The notes below the pieces were generated by a model. The model was not told the origin of the DNA. It did not search any database and saw only the letters and a program-made list of their open reading frames with translations. A stretch of 63,984 nt of DNA, counting the filler, from Collodictyon triciliatum (taxonomy: Eukaryota): the NCBI GenBank assembly GCA_043381765.1. It is 6 parts of 6 records of this genome, joined end to end, with 100 filler letters (N's around TTAATTAATTAA, not from the genome) between each part and the next. Parts side by side here need not be neighbours in the genome. Positions count along the whole stretch, not along the records: positions 16,075 to 29,785 come from JBHJMP010001937.1; positions 29,886 to 43,588 come from JBHJMP010001938.1; 4 more parts are not named here. One strand, written 5' to 3'. Each line of letters starts with the position of its first letter. Position 1 is the first letter of the stretch. The translations under genes were made by a program, and so were the position numbers. Positions 24,801 to 62,964 of this stretch are shown here, piece by piece.

Positions 24801-25169
24801 AACTTGGAGCCTGTGAGTTAGAGTCATTGAAATTAAATTATTGTCACACGATTTTCCCACCCCGATTGATAATATTTATTCTCCTATCTCTTGTCTCTCT
24901 TGTTTCCCATGTTTCAGAAAATTATCATCACATTTACATATGTCTAGCATGAAATAACACTGTTGTTTTTCTTAACCTCGCTACACTTTGAATCGAATAA
25001 AGGAAAAAAAAACATTGTTGTTTTTCTTTTTCTGTTTTGATACGTCCATCGCCTTAGTTTAGTAAAGAATCTTACATCTTTCCCCCCTTTTCAATAGGAA
25101 GTTGAGGTCCACATAGAAACCATCAAAAAAATCCTTGCGGCATCTTTGAAGACTGAATCCAGACAGTAG
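21820..25169 (+). CDS. Divergent importin-alpha-like armadillo repeat protein (multi-exon, spans N gap 24074-24629)
   Basis: YEILWVFSNITVGDS, VVEQTIWVISNICGDSKTPRN, NIAWLMSNIFR.RPFP, EFLWSLSHITD, IQTPAIRTIGNLVSGEDFHTQQVLNAGVL; after the gap LVILLEHGE.. and a last exon ending in TAG at 25167-25169. Confidence 0.8.
24956..25028 (+). mobile_element. Micro-retroposon insertion, family B (37 nt) with 18-bp TSD (1 mismatch)
   Basis: AACACTGTTGTTTTTCTT and AACATTGTTGTTTTTCTT flank aacctcgctacactttgaatcgaataaaggaaaaaaa. Confidence 0.8.
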
Positions 25170-25334: not shown

Positions 25335-25393
25335 ACATTCTGTGATTTCATTTGAATCGAATAAAGGAAAAAAAAAACATTCTGTGATTTCAT
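25335..25393 (+). mobile_element. Micro-retroposon insertion, family B (25 nt) with perfect 17-bp TSD
   Basis: ACATTCTGTGATTTCAT at 25335-25351 and 25377-25393 flanks ttgaatcgaataaaggaaaaaaaaa. Confidence 0.85.
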
Positions 25394-25501
25394 CGCTTCT
25401 CTCTTATTTCTGTGGCACTTGTTATTTTTCTTTTATTCCTCCTGCTGAAGTTCTAGGGCCAATTATCCCCTTCCCCGCAACTATGAAGCTCACGTATCCA
25501 T

Positions 25502-26649
25502 TTATGCGTCTTCGTCGGGTATTTCGTCATTTTTTGTGCTTAGAATATCCGAATCAAAGTTTGAATAAAGGAGGTATTGGTAAACAAGATGCGGAATAGA
25601 AGGCTTAAAGACAGCAGGCGTTGCGTCAAGGAGTTCTTTCATCATTTCTGCATTCTCGGCCACGGTGGACAAAACGACTTTCCCATTTTCTAGAAGCAAA
25701 GCACAACTCATTCATTAGACACACGTGATGATGGCGACAATACAAAGTCAGCTTATTATTTAAAATCAAATATAAACATATGTACTGAAATCAGCCCATC
25801 GCCAAACCTGTCAACAACACCTTTGCAGCCTTTATAGTTACGCACGTGGATATATTTCGACAAACACAATTAATATTTTGATATGATAATTATAGGTATC
25901 AATAAATCGATGCATAATATGTAATCAAAATTTTTTTGAATAGTTCATGCAAAACATAAATAAAATAGAAGCCGTAGAACAACAAAACTCATTTAAAACC
26001 TGTGTATACAGTTCCCATACATCCCGCGTGATAAAGGGCGGGTCAATCACAACCATATCGAACTGGTGATGAAGCTCCACAGGGATGTCCTCTGGCTTCT
26101 TGTAGTCGTAGTAAACATATGATGCGTGTTTGTTCCATTGCCTGTCAAACTGAAAAAATCTTATTGGGCGGCAAATCATTTATCATGTCCCTTTATTTTA
26201 TCCAGTTCGTATTCATCAAGTCACGGCTCACATCAAACACTCGGCTCGCCTGCTTCAAGGACTCATCCTTTAGTGAAAAGAATATACTCGGCGTGGAGAG
26301 AAATGCAGCCTTCTTTGCATTCTTTTCAACTACTTCGACCTATATTACACGAATGTTTTATTATATTAATACAATTTTTCATTTAGAAACCGTGGCTTCT
26401 TGGAGCATCTCAGCGAACGAAAAAGCTGTTCTGTCGCTGAAAGAACCGAAGCAATCGAAGGGAGAAAAAAAACGAGGGAGAGATCATAGGATGCTATATT
26501 AATCAAAGTGGTTTTTCTTTATCTTTTCATAGCAGAATTCAAAATGCAACCAAAGCAGCGATCGTCTTTGCGCTGTACCAATACTGATTAAAGTCTGCGT
26601 TCTCCCGAGTCCGGAGAAGAAACGAGTTGCGGGGGGCTGCAGAAGACAT
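25502..26649 (-). CDS. EEF1AKMT1: EEF1A lysine methyltransferase 1 (N6AMT2/Efm5 family); 5 exons
   Basis: Exons 26649-26551, 26339-26232, 26149-26000, 25829-25808 and 25689-25502 splice in frame: ENADFNQYWYSAKTI.., AAFLSTPSIF, FDRQW..YVYYDYKKP, FDMVVIDPPFIT, FKPSIPHLVYQYLLYSNF. Confidence 0.88.
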
Positions 26650-26819
26650 CGAGCAGACGAGTTGGGGGTCAGGTAGGCTGCTTCGAGGAGAACTTAGCAC
26701 GCAATCACAGCCCCACACAAAGGAGAATCACACTATCCAACACACTCGCCTTCCTCTTCCTCTCTCTCCTTCCTATCTGACAGACACACGCATTCGTTTC
26801 TCCCTTTATTAAATAAAAT

Positions 26820-26960
26820 GTCTTTATATCATTCTGAATTCGCTTTACCAGCAAACTAGAAGGGGTTTACCAAACGAAAGATTGGTAAACCTGGTGCGCT
26901 AGTATCCAAGGTCTCACCACTTTGTTCACAAAGATCGTGTAGTGGTGAAGGCTGCCAGGA
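26820..26960 (-). ncRNA. Putative Fanzor omegaRNA scaffold / element right end
   Basis: Overlaps and follows the Fanzor 3' end. Perfect 10-bp stem GGTTTACCAA/TTGGTAAACC (26864-26891, 8-nt loop) and 8-bp stem TCACCACT/AGTGGTGA (26914-26948). The position matches known omegaRNA placement; expression is not shown. Confidence 0.5.
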
Positions 26961-27012
26961 AATCCCCAACAGCCTGTCTTTTAGAAGATGTAGGCATATT
27001 TTGAAGGATGAA

Positions 27013-27068
27013 AAGAACTTTGTTGAGTATTTTTTTTCCTTTATTCGATTAAGAACTTTGTTGAGTAT
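27013..27068 (-). mobile_element. Micro-retroposon insertion, family B (20 nt) inside the Fanzor, perfect 18-bp TSD
   Basis: AAGAACTTTGTTGAGTAT at 27013-27030 and 27051-27068 flanks the reverse complement of aatcgaataaaggaaaaaaa. Confidence 0.85.
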
Positions 27069-27264
27069 ATCATTAGCGCTGATAAAGTCCCCTGTCAAGA
27101 ATACAGTTTGTTTGCTTTCTGAGCGATTGCATTCTTTACATACGAGACATATGCACAAATTTTTTGAATTTCCTTTCGGTTTCAGATATTCCAGTTCTTA
27201 TTCGCAGCTACAACACATCTTGGAGGTTCTAAATTCATCTACACCAACTGCTTCAAAGCGTTTG

Positions 27265-27345
27265 GATAGTATTTTTCGTTTAAAAGACGAGACAATCCTG
27301 CACTTTGAATCGAATTAAGGAAAAAAGAAAGATAGTATTTTTCGT
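27265..27345 (+). mobile_element. Micro-retroposon insertion, family B (51 nt) inside the Fanzor, perfect 15-bp TSD
   Basis: GATAGTATTTTTCGT at 27265-27279 and 27331-27345 flanks ttaaaagacgagacaatcctgcactttgaatcgaattaaggaaaaaagaaa; removing it restores GLRKILSKRFEAVGVDEF. Confidence 0.85.
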
Positions 27346-30011
27346 AATCCCCTTCCGATTGTTGCCATAAAATGTTTCATCTGAGAATTTCTGCTCCAGT
27401 CTCCATAGACCAGTACAACATCCTTGCCAAATGTCTTTTCGATTCGGTCCATAAACAATTCTTCACTTCTTTTTTGTATTTACATACTGTCTCCATCTCA
27501 TCTTTCGAAAAGTTACTTGTTCATAAAATCTGGAAAACTCTATCTAGAATCTTGATTTCATAGATACATATTTTCGAATTTTTTCATAATCGACAGTGCA
27601 TGAAATATGTCTACTCAGTTATGTCTCTAAATCGATTAAAGATGCTCTTAATCTCTCAAACTGCTGATTCTCTTCAAAAGTCAGGGGAACAAAAGAAACA
27701 GCACCTTGTAAATCTGTTGCCATGTATATCCCTGAAGCGTTATACTTTTTCTTTCTCGCGCATGAGTAGTTTGTGATTTTTAAGAGATTCGCTATCATGT
27801 CTTCTTTGATGTGCCATGTAACGTAGTTTCTTACCTGTCTCATCCACCATCTAAACCAAATTAAACTTGCCTGCGTCCACTCCAAGTATTCTTTTTTGTC
27901 GCTAATAAAGATAACTGCTCTTCGGAAAGTTCATCTATATAAACATATTCTTGGACCTTTATTGATTAACTTGGATTTGAATTAGAAATACCTTTCTTTT
28001 CAAACAATAATGACACCAACAAGCCGTATGCTTGTATCGTGTATTTAAAATTGTAGTCTCTTTGACGAAAGACCCTCTTCTTAATTTCAAAGAACTTATC
28101 TCATATGGTCTCCTTGCATCCTGATATATATTCAGTAGTGATATTTTTCCAGATAATACTAATAGAACTATCAAACATGCAGTATCTAGAGTAATATGAC
28201 ATGGTATATTGTTAGTTCTTATAGAGATTGGTTGAAACAGTTTGGTTCCAATGACCCAAAAATGCGATACATGTAAATCAGACATGGAATGTACTTATTT
28301 GGATTGACTTTGACGATTTATTTGATACCATTTTACAATATCGTTGGGAATGATACGATGCAAATGCGTCGTAGTCCATTCTTTATATTGTTCCGGTATT
28401 TCGAGTTTCTTGAAGATATCTTTTTTTTAACTTTCGTAACTCTGCCTTTTTAACAGCTTCCGTAATATTCTCATCTTAAGGAGCTGTTTGATTTATAAAG
28501 TGCGCTAACATCTTTACAAAATTTTCCTTATTGTTACTATGATAAGCTGTTAACATTTGCTTCGCCAGGTACGGTAATACATGAGACAATCCGACCAACG
28601 GAAAGCGTTCTTCTCGGGTCAAAAGGAATCGAAAATCATTGAGATAAAAAAGTCATCATGTCCTTACTCAAATCTGGATGTTTTAATCTTGCGGGTTTAT
28701 CTTGTGAAACTATTCTGAGTGTCTGTAAAGCGTACAGAAAACATATTTCATCGATTGTTGGAAGTTGATGTGATTTCAATGTGTAACATCTTGCAAACAG
28801 ATAAGTGTCGGTAACCAAGTTGTGACACAATAAAGCCGTACCGTTGATTTTGTCATAGTCATCCACATTCTTTACAATCGACTTTAGAGATATTTTCACA
28901 TTTCGATAGTCTAGTTTTACAGACTTTAGATTCTCAAACTCAAGACGTTTTCTTTTCTTCATTTGAAAGTCTTTGTTTAACTTTTTCGATTAGAGAACTA
29001 CCGATTTTTCAATTTTAATAAAACTTTAGTCATTCAGTCAATAAAAAAAAAAAAAAAACTGCATAAAATCAATTTCTGTAAAATTAAGCATTTACCGAGA
29101 CTCTCAAAATGTGCACATTGCGGCAAACAAACACACAAAGTTTTTTATAAGTGATTTGAGACAAAACGCTGAGAGCCGATTCGGCGAGTTCGAAAGGACA
29201 ACCGTATAGCCATTGCGACTGGAAGTCAACATATCGGCCCCAAACATCATGATTACCGCCGCAAGTGTGGATAATATACTTTTTTGAGATGCATGTTTGG
29301 TGGCAGTTTATAGGGTGGGTTCTGTCTGGGCCAAGGCAAGGGCTTGTTTGTATTTTTTGAATTTTAATGATAATATTACATAAATGAAAAATAAAATATA
29401 CGTTGATTATGGGAATAGAATGAAACTATTAAGTATTATTTAACCTTACTACATATACTAATTATACCATTATATTATCCAGGTTGTTTCTTGGATTCAC
29501 CAAAGCTCTTACTTTCGTCAATCCAGATTTAATTTGATGGTTGTCGGTGCAATAAACTGCTATATATGGGTACACTTTCGCTGTATAAAAAGTACTGTGT
29601 CTTGAAAGGGATAAAGCCAAGTTCGTCACAACCTTTGTAATAAAGTTTATCCATTTACAGGCTGAATGAGACCGAAGGGAAAGGAATAAGAAAAAAGAAA
29701 AAAGAAAAAAGAAAAAAGAAAAAAGAAAAAAGAAAAAAGAAAAAAGAAAAAAGAAAAAAGAAAAAAGAAAAAAGAAAAAAGAAAANNNNNNNNNNNNNNN
29801 NNNNNNNNNNNNNNNNNNNNNNNNNNNNNTTAATTAATTAANNNNNNNNNNNNNNNNNNNNNNNNNNNNNNNNNNNNNNNNNNNNCCGAAATGCAGTTAA
29901 ACAGGTATTGCCACATTATAGTTCGATAAAAATTCAATCAAGGACAAGAAAATGTCTATTAAATATCAATAAAGGTAGATCTGTGTTGAATACCACGCAG
30001 ACGATTGACTG

Positions 30012-43433: not shown

Positions 43434-44032
43434 TTGTATCCCCTGTATTTTTCTCCAAGAAAGATGTTAGGCACCACATTTTCTCTCTTTTCTTTTTCTT
43501 TTATCTTTTATCTTTTATCTTTTATCTTTTATCTTTTATCTTTTATCTTTTATCTTTTATCTTTTATCTTTTATCTTTTATCTTTTTTNNNNNNNNNNNN
43601 NNNNNNNNNNNNNNNNNNNNNNNNNNNNNNNNTTAATTAATTAANNNNNNNNNNNNNNNNNNNNNNNNNNNNNNNNNNNNNNNNNNNNGGGGGGGGGGGG
43701 GGGGTTTCTTCTATTTCTGTAACTTTATTTTCCACTTTATGGTTCCCCAGTCAGTTAGCTCACGGACCACTGACTCACAAACGAACAAACAAACAAACGA
43801 ACAAATGGACAAAATCCCATTCAAGAGCCTTCAGATGCTTGATCAGACTTTCTCAGTGGCATAAGCTGTGCACGTTTTGTGTTGTTTTGTGTGTTATTCT
43901 CCTTCGTCTTCCTGTGACCACCAAACCACGAGAGATGAATCAAAAAATGAAAACAAGCACGTTTCTGTTTGGTTATATACAAGTCGATAGCAAAATATAT
44001 ATATAAAATTCGTCACCCTCTAAAAGAAGAAC

Positions 44033-51909: not shown

Positions 51910-54281
51910 ATGGATCAGCTCCTCTCATATGTTACTTTGCTGACCGAGAAGATCTCTATTCCCACTTGGTCGTACTATCTTCTGTCCTTCTTTGCTGCAA
52001 CTACCATTTATCGCTGGATCAGCAGGCCAAAGGTCAGCCCCCTTACTTTTCTTTTCGTCTGTTTCTGTATCATATTAAACTGGTTTTATTTCTATATTGT
52101 TGGTACTATTGTTTGTTTTATTGTGTTATTATTGAATAATCTTTTTGTTGTCTTATATCATATTATCGTTGTTTAAAATAATTCCAACTAACCAAAAAAA
52201 AATAATAATAATTGAAGGTCAGCTTCCAGAGCAAACACGTAGTGATCACAGGAGGTAGCGAGGGACTTGGGAGAGCATCTGCAGTTTTATTCGCAAAAGA
52301 GGGTGCAAACGTGACTATTATCGCACGGACTCAGTCGAAGCTTGATGCTGCTTTGAAGGAAATAAAGGTTAGGCATATTCAACACCAATATCTTGAGGGG
52401 AAAAATGTGTACCATTAAGTTATGCCGTTATGTATTTAAATTTATTTATGGCTTCATTCACTTTAGTTTTAAGTCTCTCTTTCCTTTTCTTTTATCATTT
52501 CATTTTCAAAAGGGAATCTTATCTGGTGGATATTTCATATCTTATAGGCTGCAGCAAAGAACCCAACACAGAAGCTGAATGCTCTTTCTGCAGATGTGAC
52601 CAACCCCAGTGTGATAGCTAAAGTACTTGGTGATGCTGTTCGCTTGAGCGGAGATATTGACTATCTCGTCTCCAATGCCGGTTTGTTTTCTCTCTCATGC
52701 TCTAAGATAATTTACTAGCTTTAATTTTAATGATCCATTTATTGTAAATGCCAAATATATCATTTAATTTGAAGTAACCCTATCAATCTTTATCACATAT
52801 CGGATCAGAAGCATTTTTAGCATATGAAAGCGTTATTTTCACACAGGTACAGCACAGCCTGGATACTTTTTCGAGTTGACACCAGAAGATTTCAAACGCC
52901 AAATGGAGCTCAATTGTAACTCAAAAATTACAGCATTCAATGTGTTTCTCTTTTACATTTAATGGCATCTCTGTGGTGTGATTCTAATGTCTCTTTTTGG
53001 GTTTATCCATCGTATAGATTTAGGAACTGTGAACACTATCAAAGGCGCTCTCCCTCATATGATTGCAGCAAAGAAAGGACATATCCTTTTCGTATCTTCA
53101 GCAGCATCTATGGCTGGATTTATTGGTTATTCTGCGTCAGTATTTGTCTATCCTTTCTTGTCCGTATAATTTTATGGGGTCTCTTTCTCTTAAAAAAAAA
53201 AAAAGTATTCGTTCTGGTTGATATGCTACTCACTCATTTGCCGAATTAATTCAAACCATGACACACAGATACACACCAACGAAGGTTTCCCACCTCTTTC
53301 AAGAAAAAAAGAAAGAAATGATGAATCATCATGAAGAATACATATAAGAAGAAAATGTGTACATGTTTCATTAGCTCGCATAGAATAATATAAAGAGAGT
53401 ATTCTCTTTCATGTCAGTTTGCCCTTCGTGGTCTTGCTGACTGTCTGCGCAACGAATTGCAACTATATGGAATCAAAGTGTCCATATTCTTTCCCTCTGC
53501 AATGAAAACACCAGGCTACGAACGCGAAGAGCTCATCAAACCAGAGGAAACTAAAGTAAACCCATGTTGAGGAAAAGAAAGAGTCTAGAAGCCCCAAAAT
53601 AATGCTGGGGTGTCTGCCATGCGAAGAAATAATGTTTCCCCAGCTAAAATCACACGTTCAGTAGTTACTTTTAGATGGTTATTGTTCATTTTTTGTATGA
53701 TACATGCTGAGCCGAATTAATCTAAACAACAGAAAATCGAGTCTATTGACCCAGTATTCAGTGAGGAATCATCCGCTGCCACTTTATTGACTGGGCTCAA
53801 GGTAAGCCCTTTCCTACTTTCCCAGCTCATCCAAGAAATATGAGGCTTTTATATGAAAGTCGTTACCCCCCATCTTTTCAGCAGACCTTTTAGTGAATAC
53901 CTTTCATACCCCAGAGTGGAGACTATACAGTCACCCAAGAGTTCCTTGCTGAATGCGGCCGCATGCTAAGCAACGGAGTTCCCCCTCGGAATAACTTTTT
54001 CCTGGAGCTTGTGATTACGCCTGTGATGGTAATCGTCCAAGTAAGTGCCATTTTTCGCTGTTTTTCATCCTCCTTTATTCCTCATATGTTTGATGAAAGT
54101 GGGTGGTTGATGAAGTGTTAATGCGGGTTTCAAATGTGTCTAAGTTTTTTATTACTATTTTTCTTTAATTGTAAACGCAATTATGCAGGTCTTTTACCTC
54201 TTGTTTATTGACTACATCGCAAAGAGTTCAAAGGCCGGAGCTCGACACCAGGCTTTAGTTTCGAGAGAGAAAAGGGATTAA
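51910..54281 (+). CDS. KDSR: 3-ketodihydrosphingosine reductase (TSC10/FVT1-type SDR)
   Basis: Hydrophobic N-terminus, HVVITGGSEGLG..GANVTIIAR, SADVT, LVSNAG|TAQPGYF, QMELN|YLGTV, GHILFVSS, GYSA|YTPTK|FALRGLADCLRNEL, TPGYEREELIKPEETK, hydrophobic C-terminus. Confidence 0.92.
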
Positions 54282-57027: not shown

Positions 57028-57633
57028 GGAGAAAGGTTGAGCAAGTGATAAAGAAATTAGATAATAGTTTATAGTATGAAGTATAGTGTATGAAGTAAAA
57101 AGTTATTAGGAAAAAAGTATAAAAAAAAAAGGAATAGAAGGAGCTGAAAAATAGAGTAAATGAGTGGGAAGAGATGGCAACTTTGCAGCGAACGATCAAG
57201 CCCTAAGGTGGTGCGATCGGGAATAATAAAGAGTCTACAGCTCCCCGTATTTCGGTCTTCTTATATTCTTTTCTTTGTTTGTTTTTTATGGTTTTTATGG
57301 TTTTTTTATGGTTTTTTTATGGTTTTTTTATGGTTTTTTATGGTTTTTTATGGTTTTTTATGGTTTTTTATGGTTTTTTTATGGTTTTTTNNNNNNNNNN
57401 NNNNNNNNNNNNNNNNNNNNNNNNNNNNNNNNNNTTAATTAATTAANNNNNNNNNNNNNNNNNNNNNNNNNNNNNNNNNNNNNNNNNNNNTTTAATAAAA
57501 TTATTAATAATAAAAAAAAATTAAAAAAAAAATTAAAAAATTATTTTTTTTTTTTTTTTTTTTTACAATTTTTCCCCTAAAACAAAATATATAAAAGATG
57601 GGCCGTTTCCCCCAAATGAGATACAATTTTTTA

Positions 57634-62847: not shown

Positions 62848-62964
62848 NNNNNNNNNNNNNNNNNNNNNNNNNNNNNNNNNNNNNNNNNNNNTTAATTAAT
62901 TAANNNNNNNNNNNNNNNNNNNNNNNNNNNNNNNNNNNNNNNNNNNNAGCGACTGGATCGGAGG

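What the first reader, a model, noticed from the sequence alone, without database searches (positions are those of the whole stretch)
26926..28962. Hidden Fanzor1-type RNA-guided nuclease (eukaryotic OMEGA system) fossil that can be reconstructed almost end to end
Seen: a ~2-kb intronless stretch in an otherwise intron-dense region, broken into small ORFs by stops, homopolymer frameshifts and two insertions. Manual stitching gives one colinear protein with GVD(A)GK, LRY..QRR, FG.D.V..YGDWS...QMK, G.GLRK, VDEFRTSK, CCxC...CxxC and T(G)D..SA.DIL. Established: this motif order, with the RuvC-II glutamate just before the Zn finger, is typical of Fanzor proteins, the eukaryotic and giant-virus TnpB/Cas12 relatives. 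Inference: a decayed copy of a possibly uncharacterised Fanzor family in this lineage. All three catalytic acidic codons survive, and intact paralogues may exist elsewhere in the genome.
Basis: partly seen in the sequence, partly recalled or inferred. Interest (0 to 1): 0.92.

Follow-up and report, generated by a model that had tools for sequence, protein, structure and literature searches.

The report
Decayed Fanzor1 nuclease gene copy
This stretch is a dead, heavily mutated copy of a Fanzor1 gene (a eukaryotic relative of the bacterial TnpB/Cas12 RNA-guided DNA cutters) that belongs to a repeated family and is closest to versions carried by giant viruses; it is a real but fairly ordinary genomic fossil.

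Summary
On the minus strand, 28962 to 26926, one reading that switches between all three frames is colinear with positions 4-590 of a 615-position profile of intact 570-656 aa proteins. Identity is 41-44%.

That protein family is Fanzor1. Its profile matches SpuFz1 over the full length (E 1.3e-58), then PpFz1 and GtFz1, and nothing else in the PDB. A model of the nearest intact relative overlays SpuFz1 at TM 0.78, against 0.21 for TnpB and Fanzor2.

The window copy is dead. It has about 8 frameshifts and at least 7 in-frame stops. It also carries two short insertions with 15- and 18-nt target duplications, both tails of one repeated retroelement. The three catalytic codons survive, but 11 of 32 family-invariant residues are lost.

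Its relatives lie mostly on giant-virus contigs, inside TA-flanked Tc1/mariner-like elements, an arrangement already in print. Contigs of related runs show a multi-copy family, and several of the window's lesions are private to this copy.

No guide-RNA remnant, terminal inverted repeat or transposase was found here. Verdict: a new member of a known kind, of modest interest.

The parts
26926..28962 (-). Fanzor1-family pseudogene, from the ATG (28962-28960) to the terminal stop (26928-26926)
   Evidence: Profile pieces are colinear over hmm 4-590 of 615. Frame-aware alignment gives 41-44% identity over 570-614 codons.
27875..27877 (-). RuvC-I aspartate codon, in GVDAGK; the family has D-P-G-K, here D-A-G-K
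   Evidence: Family-invariant D355 is kept and P356 is lost.
27402..27404 (-). Glycine of YGDWS, at the canonical RuvC-II site
   Evidence: Invariant G478 is kept. Fanzors carry Pro or Gly at this site.
27234..27236 (-). Alternative RuvC-II glutamate codon, in VDEFRTSK
   Evidence: Invariant E512 is kept. It aligns to the E of lldEykTS in SpuFz1.
27129..27215 (-). Zinc-finger (TNB) region CCSC...CLVCKEC, interrupted by a stop at 27200-27198
   Evidence: Translation. Weak Pfam PF07282 match (E 0.027); relatives match at E 8e-7 to 1e-3.
27087..27089 (-). RuvC-III aspartate codon, in TGDFISANDI; the neighbouring family-invariant R and N are lost
   Evidence: D559 is kept, R558 is now G, N561 is now I, N565 is now D.
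27265..27345 (+). Insertion 1: a 51-nt tail of a repeated retroelement between two 15-nt direct repeats (period 66). It is in frame and brings a stop at 27317.
   Evidence: Contigs of runs X1 and X3 skip exactly these 66 nt (table 5).
27013..27068 (-). Insertion 2: a 20-nt tail of the same retroelement in the opposite orientation, between two 18-nt direct repeats (period 38). It shifts the frame.
   Evidence: No exact 38-nt skip was among the 15 joints listed (21 more were not shown).
27650..27745 (-). Extra segment of about 30 codons, absent from the virus-borne relatives but read through in fragment P0020. It is either a lineage-specific coding insert or a short intron.
   Evidence: GT start, in-phase AG ends and a CTGAC motif read. 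Host introns are 55-115 nt.
26856..27012 (-). Structured 3' end (three hairpins) spanning the ORF end and about 46-70 nt beyond. This is where a guide (omega) RNA scaffold would be expected.
   Evidence: RNA fold of -48.2 kcal/mol, z -3.9, 0 of 200 shuffles as stable. No match to the model of the viral 3' element.
26870..26890 (.). Approximate right end of the repeated unit
   Evidence: Contig depth in X1/X3 falls from 104-169 (26905-27005) to 17-27 (26804-26904) and to 0 (26703-26803). There is a loose end at 26880 in X4.
28963..29339 (-). Upstream flank that is still part of the repeated unit in other copies; the left end was not found
   Evidence: Contigs of X1 and X3 run from the gene's 5' end to 29197-29339 (table 8). 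No inverted repeat with the right end. No transposase or small-ORF remnant.

Best explanation
The stretch is a non-functional, decayed copy of a Fanzor1 gene.

Inferred from the solved relatives: the intact ancestor encoded a nuclease of about 600-650 aa. It had an N-terminal basic cluster (MKKRKR), REC/WED domains, a split RuvC domain and a zinc finger. The RuvC domain used the Fanzor-type catalytic triad: Asp in GxDxGK, Gly at the canonical RuvC-II site with the alternative Glu in DEFRTSK, and Asp in RDxNSAxNI. Such an enzyme would have cut DNA under the direction of a guide RNA transcribed from the element's 3' end.

Shown here: the copy belongs to a multi-copy repeat family in this freshwater eukaryote's lineage. 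Its nearest intact relatives, at 41-45% identity, are Fanzor1 genes on giant-virus contigs, where they ride in TA-flanked Tc1/mariner(IS630)-like transposons.

After insertion about 275 bp upstream of a host N6-adenine-methyltransferase-like gene, this copy lost function. It accumulated about 8 frameshifts, at least 7 in-frame stops and two insertions of 5'-truncated retroelement tails, and it lost a third of the family-invariant residues. It most likely does nothing today.
For: Colinearity and significance:
- Searches show the colinear match.

Family identity:
- The window fragment's best PDB hit is PpFz1 (E 1.2e-3), with the alignment gap exactly at insertion 1.
- The profile of relatives hits SpuFz1 at 1.3e-58 over profile positions 8-591, PpFz1 at 9.2e-50 and GtFz1 at 2.5e-43. 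These were the only 3 hits at E <= 0.01.
- The AlphaFold model of relative P0003 has pLDDT 86 and pTM 0.80. It matches SpuFz1 at TM 0.77-0.78, PpFz1 at 0.70-0.75 and GtFz1 at 0.68. TnpB 8h1j and ApmFz2 score 0.21.

Decay:
- 21 of 32 invariant and 27 of 39 nearly invariant family positions are kept.
- The insertions are tails of a repeat with 8 matches in the window against 0.2 expected.

Multi-copy family:
- 450 contig pieces in X1 and 432 in X3 lie on the stretch at 80-99+% identity.
- Those runs have contigs that lack insertion 1.
- At four of the frameshift sites some of their contigs differ from the window by a single base; these are minorities at most sites (for example 5 X1 and 8 X3 contigs at 27470).
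- At two of the stops, all covering contigs in X1, X2 and X4 read otherwise; in X3, all at one stop and nearly all the depth at the other.
- Fragments P0011, P0091, P0012 and P0020 are 45-77% identical. P0011 even shares the window's off-frame reading.

Viral kinship:
- 325 relatives were found in IMG/VR, many on giant-virus bins of up to 280 kb, and 457 in metagenomes.
- All 157 fetched loci hold open frames of 378-709 aa.
- In the tree the window copy sits inside a clade with SH-aLRT support of 99, made up of 49 rows from viral and metagenome contigs.

Host context:
- The flanking gene has introns and matches Pfam PF10237 at 6.5e-16.
Against: - The guide RNA is inferred only. There is no Rfam hit and no match to the covariance model or nhmmer profile of the viral 3' element.
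- No terminal inverted repeat, target duplication or transposase was found for this copy, so the carrier transposon is unknown.
- The window branch in the tree is long (1.18) and its closest join is not strongly supported (SH-aLRT 89).
- The collections searched hold viral, metagenome and prokaryote contigs. Cellular eukaryote relatives may be under-sampled, which biases the 'nearest to viruses' reading.
- Runs X1 and X3 are coded organisms of unknown relation to the window, and it is unclear whether they are DNA or RNA.
- Some homopolymer frameshifts could be assembly errors. The stops and insertions cannot be.
Confidence: 0.9

Rival explanations
1. The copy is a relic of an endogenised giant virus (a small surviving piece of an integrated viral genome) rather than a cellular transposon copy.
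For: The nearest intact relatives are on giant-virus contigs. Host-chromosome Fanzor fragments derived from integrated giant viruses are described in print (passages of bioRxiv 10.1101/2024.09.03.611062; passages of PMC3627910).
Against: Only about 2.1-2.5 kb is foreign. Both flanks are intron-bearing host-type genes. No other virus-like gene, DDE transposase or small upstream ORF was found in the window. Identity to any viral copy is only 41-45%. Related runs hold hundreds of diverged pieces of just this unit, which fits amplification inside a cellular genome.
Confidence: 0.1
2. The gene is really intact or nearly so, and the breaks are assembly or sequencing errors at homopolymers.
For: Several frameshifts sit at A/T runs of 6-8 bases. 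At four of them, contigs of other runs differ by one base. The assembly has gaps.
Against: At least 7 in-frame stops are base substitutions, not length errors. Two retroelement insertions carry target duplications. 11 of 32 invariant residues are replaced, including residues beside the catalytic ones. A freshwater-metagenome contig matches 26705-26933 with 3 differences, and another matches 28492-28642 with none (table 8).
Confidence: 0.02
3. The similarity is to another TnpB-like group (Fanzor2, or TnpB of bacterial origin), or it is a chance run of motifs.
For: Pfam alone gives only weak hits for the window pieces: PF07282 at E 0.027, below the cut-off.
Against: Full-length profile and fold matches are to the three solved Fanzor1 proteins only. 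TnpB and Fanzor2 trail far behind. Colinearity runs over about 590 profile positions with E down to 8e-32.
Confidence: 0.01

Closest known systems
Fanzor1 of Spizellomyces punctatus (SpuFz1; PDB 8gkh, 9ceu-9cez)
   Same: Same domain order over the full length. Same RuvC-I Asp, Gly at the canonical RuvC-II site, alternative Glu before the zinc finger, and RuvC-III Asp (alignment). The nearest intact relative's model overlays it at TM 0.77-0.78. Similar size, about 600-650 aa.
   Different: About 21% identity between relative and SpuFz1. The window copy is broken. No guide RNA or inverted repeats were found here.
Giant-virus-borne Fanzor1 in Tc1/mariner(IS630)-type elements, such as PGv-1 of Phaeocystis globosa virus and the Fanzor families of the Chlamydomonas integrated giant virus
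   Same: The window's nearest relatives (L001-L157) show this architecture. About 30-nt inverted ends are flanked by TA; all 16 of the 16 loci I selected for the check had them. A DDE_3+HTH transposase lies nearby. Some elements carry only Fanzor plus a right end. The published descriptions are (passages read).
   Different: The window copy shares 41-45% protein identity only. It lacks the viral ends, transposase and small upstream ORF. It carries an extra segment of about 30 codons shared with fragment P0020.
TnpB (ISDra2, PDB 8h1j) and Fanzor2 (ApmFz2, PDB 9b0l)
   Same: Same RuvC and zinc-finger core and the same general mechanism of guide-RNA-directed DNA cutting (established knowledge).
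   Different: Much smaller REC part. TM only 0.21 to the relative's model. No sequence-profile hit at E <= 0.01. ISDra2 TnpB has the canonical RuvC-II glutamate.

Membership tests
Fanzor1 | Full-length homology to solved Fanzor1 proteins (REC/WED, split RuvC and zinc finger in the same order) | tested here: met
   The window is colinear with the family profile. The family profile matches SpuFz1 at E 1.3e-58 over positions 8-591, and also PpFz1 and GtFz1. The window fragment itself hits PpFz1 best, at E 1.2e-3.
Fanzor1 | Fold like Fanzor1 rather than TnpB, Fanzor2 or Cas12 | tested here: met
   Tested on the nearest intact relative P0003, not on the broken window copy. TM is 0.77-0.78 to SpuFz1 against 0.21 to TnpB and ApmFz2.
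Fanzor1 | RuvC catalytic Asp-Glu-Asp, with the canonical RuvC-II Glu replaced (Gly or Pro) and an alternative Glu downstream | tested here: met
   D at 27877, G at 27404, E at 27236 and D at 27089 are all kept. The rule comes from section 11 of PMC10530073. Here the Glu lies 34 residues after the Gly once insertion 1 is set aside (counted).
Fanzor1 | CxxC...CxxC zinc finger between RuvC-II and RuvC-III | tested here: met
   CCSC and CLVCKEC are present, with one stop between them.
Fanzor1 | Open reading frame able to give a protein | tested here: not met
   About 8 frameshifts, at least 7 in-frame stops and 2 insertions. This makes it a pseudogene of the family, not a working member.
Fanzor1 | Guide (omega) RNA encoded at the 3' end, reaching the element's right end | tested here: inconclusive
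   The 3' 157 nt fold unusually well (z -3.9). There is no Rfam hit and no match to the relatives' 3' element.
Fanzor1 | Residence in a transposon with recognisable ends | tested here: inconclusive
   It is a repeated unit with a right boundary near 26880. No inverted repeat, target duplication or transposase was found.
Fanzor1 | RNA-guided DNA cleavage | not testable with these tools
   Needs biochemistry. This copy cannot encode the protein.
Fanzor2 / TnpB | Closer to Fanzor2 or TnpB than to Fanzor1 by sequence profile or fold | tested here: not met
   No hit at E <= 0.01. TM 0.21.

The most novel reading that the evidence does not exclude
The lineage that owns this window carries a still-active, multi-copy Fanzor1 element that was exchanged with giant viruses and has since adapted to the cell. 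In that case the extra segment at 27650-27745 would be an acquired short intron or a lineage-specific insert. Intact copies with a new guide RNA and new ends would exist elsewhere in the genome.
Probability: 0.25. Interest if true: 0.5.

Novelty: new member of a known kind. Interest (0 to 1): 0.3.

Why it matters
Fanzors are the eukaryotic RNA-guided DNA cutters and are of interest as compact genome editors. Thousands are already catalogued: 3,655 in PMC10530073 (passage). Decayed copies and virus-host sharing of Fanzor elements are also already described. This copy therefore adds a data point rather than a new principle.

It documents a Fanzor1 fossil sitting in a host promoter region. It shows kinship to the giant-virus Tc1/mariner-borne clade. 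It also hints, through contigs of related runs, that less damaged copies exist in this freshwater lineage. Those copies would be worth a look as a source of an intact nuclease and its guide RNA.

Tried and rejected
- Whole-genome search: no genome is held for this window. The copy count in the genome could not be taken directly.
- Pfam on the separate window pieces gave only sub-threshold hits. The precomputed label PF26935.1 on the relatives is not in the local Pfam copy, so I cannot name it.
- Rfam gave nothing in 25500-30000 at E <= 1 and nothing in the whole window at gathering score. No tRNA was found.
- Guide-RNA remnant: the nhmmer profile and covariance model R1 of the relatives' 3' element found nothing at the pseudogene's 3' end. 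The best window hit was E 0.2, at an unrelated place. My first by-eye alignment of the window's 3' hairpin to the viral right end was dropped for that reason, and because the contig pile-up ends inside that hairpin.
- Terminal inverted repeats between 26840-26930 and 28960-29460: local alignment scores of 14 were below the shuffle mean of 17.8.
- Transposase and small upstream ORF of the viral elements: tblastn gave no hit in the window below E 0.1.
- Second copy near 52.9 kb: a 25-nt match to the viral right end has no Fanzor coding beside it and no inverted partner.
- The flanks 28963-29785 and 26400-26930 have no other copy in the window except simple repeats.
- Expression: no listed holder is on record as RNA.
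- Habitat: only small shares of words in freshwater and subsurface metagenomes. One contig matched 26705-26933 with 3 differences.
- Host identity was not determined. Run organisms are coded, and the protein sources give no names.
- C-terminal tail after insertion 2: no significant profile match, and only a weak pairwise resemblance to P0005's tail.
Full report
**What is there.** The window is eukaryotic. It has intron-bearing genes, N gaps and uneven G+C. No whole genome is held for it.

Between 28962 and 26926 on the minus strand, stop-to-stop translation gives a string of short ORFs in all three frames.

A search with the C-terminal read-through (P0001, X at two stops) found intact proteins of 570-830 aa at 31-45% identity. 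A profile of seven of them (615 nodes) matches the three minus frames in seven ordered pieces. Together the pieces cover profile positions 4-590, with domain E-values of 5e-14 to 8e-32.

My own frame-aware alignment to three relatives runs from the ATG at 28962 to 27015, or to 26935 for P0005. Identity is 41-44% over 570-614 codons. There is no second copy in the window.

**What family.** The window fragment's best match among solved structures is Parasitella Fanzor1 (E 1.2e-3). The alignment gap falls exactly where insertion 1 lies.

The profile of the relatives matches three PDB sequences at E <= 0.01 and no others:
- Spizellomyces Fanzor1, at E 1.3e-58 over profile positions 8-591
- Parasitella Fanzor1, at 9.2e-50
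- Guillardia Fanzor1, at 2.5e-43

An AlphaFold model of the closest intact relative P0003 was built from a 39-row alignment and has pLDDT 86 and pTM 0.80. It overlays SpuFz1 at TM 0.77-0.78, PpFz1 at 0.70-0.75 and GtFz1 at 0.68. ISDra2 TnpB and mimivirus Fanzor2 reach 0.21.

The family keeps four positions invariant or nearly so: D in DPGK, G in YGDWS, E in (N/D)EF.TSK and D in TRDxN. This is the Fanzor arrangement described in section 11 of PMC10530073, which I read. There the canonical RuvC-II glutamate is replaced by Pro or Gly, and an alternative glutamate further on is essential.

**State of the copy.** The alignment needs frame changes at these places (positions depend on my scoring):
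- 28647-28653
- 28403-28418
- 28315
- 28245-28251
- 28102-28129
- 27902
- 27643-27736
- 27468
- a further shift caused by insertion 2

It also meets in-frame stops at 28478, 28103, 27968, 27853, 27742, 27621, 27546, 27317 (inside insertion 1) and 27200.

The three catalytic codons and the RuvC-II glycine survive. However, only 21 of 32 invariant and 27 of 39 nearly invariant family positions are kept. Residues next to the catalytic ones are among those lost.

**The two inserts.** Both have perfect direct repeats: 15 nt with a period of 66, and 18 nt with a period of 38. Both carry the same A-rich tail, in opposite orientations.

That tail has 8 matches in the window against 0.2 expected. Other short copies, at 24991 and 25355, also have 17-nt flanking repeats. 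I read these as extremely 5'-truncated insertions of a non-LTR retroelement. This reading is inferred from the tail and the target duplications; I did not find the parent element.

**Extra segment.** About 30 codons at 27650-27745 are absent from the virus-borne relatives. They are read through in fragment P0020. The segment starts with GT and has in-phase AG ends. Host introns here are 55-115 nt. It may therefore be a short intron; this is untested.

**Relatives and their setting.** Scans found 457 relatives in metagenome contigs and 325 in IMG/VR. Many of the latter lie in giant-virus bins on contigs of up to 280 kb. All 157 fetched loci hold open frames of 378-709 aa.

Downstream of these genes lies a block that stays 90-98% identical between loci whose proteins are only 32-34% identical. 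It has a motif that floats relative to the stop codon. It also has a hairpin in which 4 of 4 predicted pairs show compensatory changes.

The last 30 nt or so of the block are the right arm of a terminal inverted repeat. All 16 of the 16 loci I selected for this check carry the inverted copy upstream. Two layouts occur:
- the upstream arm lies beyond a DDE_3+HTH transposase on the other strand (Pfam E 1e-13 to 4e-16)
- the upstream arm lies just upstream of Fanzor, in shorter elements

The ends are flanked by TA (read).

This is the Tc1/mariner-Fanzor1 architecture already described for PGv-1 and related viral elements (PMC3627910, passages). It is also described for the integrated giant virus of Chlamydomonas. 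That work reports Fanzor-only elements 'with right-end guide' and a host-chromosome Fanzor fragment (bioRxiv 10.1101/2024.09.03.611062, passages).

In a quick maximum-likelihood tree of 67 rows, the window copy has a long branch (1.18). It joins, with SH-aLRT 89, a clade that holds L015, L011, P0003, L007 and L001-L005. That clade sits inside a clade with support of 99, made up of 49 rows from viral or metagenome contigs. For this tree I dropped rows that were 90% or more identical to a kept row.

**This copy lacks the viral features.** It has no DDE transposase or small-ORF remnant and no match to the viral 3' element. There is no inverted repeat between its ends and no Rfam family.

Its 3' 157 nt do fold far better than shuffles, with z -3.9 and 0 of 200 shuffles as stable. 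That is the place and kind of structure expected of a guide-RNA scaffold, but it is not proof.

**A repeated family.** A full scan of 1.84 billion representatives with P0001 gave 268 hits at E <= 1e-3, 44 at <= 1e-10 and none at <= 1e-30.

Among them are short fragments from 513-767-bp contigs at 45-77% identity: P0011, P0091, P0012 and P0020. P0011 reproduces the window's off-frame translation and carries its own retroelement tail. This points to nucleotide-level kinship.

I laid contigs of four coded runs on 26400-29400. X1 gave 450 pieces and X3 gave 432, at 80 to over 99% identity. Depth was 100-480 over the unit, against 9-20 over the neighbouring host exon.
- Depth drops to zero below about 26.85 kb.
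- Several contigs skip exactly the 66 nt of insertion 1.
- At four frameshift sites some contigs differ from the window by one base; at most of these sites they are a minority of the covering depth.
- At two stop codons nearly all covering contigs read a sense codon: all in X1, X2 and X4, and in X3 all at one stop and nearly all the depth at the other.

Many of this copy's lesions are thus private, and the family was, or is, in better shape elsewhere. There are two caveats. The relation of organisms A and B to the window's source is not known to me. Contigs also cannot show copy number or expression.

**Context.** The terminal stop lies about 275 bp upstream of the start of an intron-bearing gene on the same strand. 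That gene matches the N6-adenine-methyltransferase family (PF10237, E 6.5e-16). The fossil therefore sits in that gene's upstream region. Whether it affects the gene was not tested.

**Verdict.** This is a genuine Fanzor1-family pseudogene: a new member of a known kind. Thousands of Fanzors, their presence in giant viruses, their Tc1/mariner carriers and host-genome fragments are all already in print.

Noticed in passing
window 24991-25009, 25355-25373, 27032-27050 (-), 27308-27326, 13346, 37056 (-), 37185 (-), 56524 (-): A retroelement 3' tail (AATCGAATWAAGGAAAAAA) has 8 matches in the window against 0.2 expected. Four copies are only 20-50 nt long and are flanked by 15-18-nt direct repeats, which suggests extreme 5' truncation during target-primed insertion.
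   Followed up: partly
L001-L157 (for example L003:2685-5999, L033:3489-5910): In the virus and metagenome relatives, Fanzor1 lies in TA-flanked elements with inverted ends of about 30 nt. Some carry a DDE_3+HTH transposase and a small coiled-coil ORF. A block specific to the right end, with a covarying hairpin, is a candidate guide-RNA scaffold. It stays 90-98% identical between loci whose proteins are only 32-34% identical.
   Followed up: partly
window 52876-52906 (-): A 25-31-nt stretch resembles the right inverted end of the viral Fanzor elements (3 mismatches to a 25-nt pattern; 5 of 100 shuffles also give a match). There is no Fanzor coding beside it and no inverted partner nearby. It may be chance or a solo end.
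   Followed up: yes
window 27650-27745 (-): The extra segment of the pseudogene begins GTATAA, has a CTGAC motif and in-phase AG ends, and is the size of the host's introns. It is a possible acquired intron in a Fanzor gene.
   Followed up: partly
window 28988-29168 and 29292-29400: Some contigs of related runs skip about 170-176 nt here, a stretch that holds an AATAAA plus A16 run. Others replace what lies before 29306 with a T run. This suggests further small repeat insertions upstream of the pseudogene.
   Followed up: no
window 8000-10300 and 18200-20900: Two genes have about 62-65% G+C: a Sel1-repeat-like ORF and an ATP-citrate-lyase-like gene with AT-rich introns. They lie in an otherwise 31-43% G+C window, which is strong gene-scale heterogeneity in composition.
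   Followed up: no
window 15975-16074, 29786-29885, 43589-43688, 57391-57490, 62848-62947: N runs come as pairs of 44 N around 12 real bases, next to simple repeats. They look like masking or scaffolding marks rather than biology.
   Followed up: no
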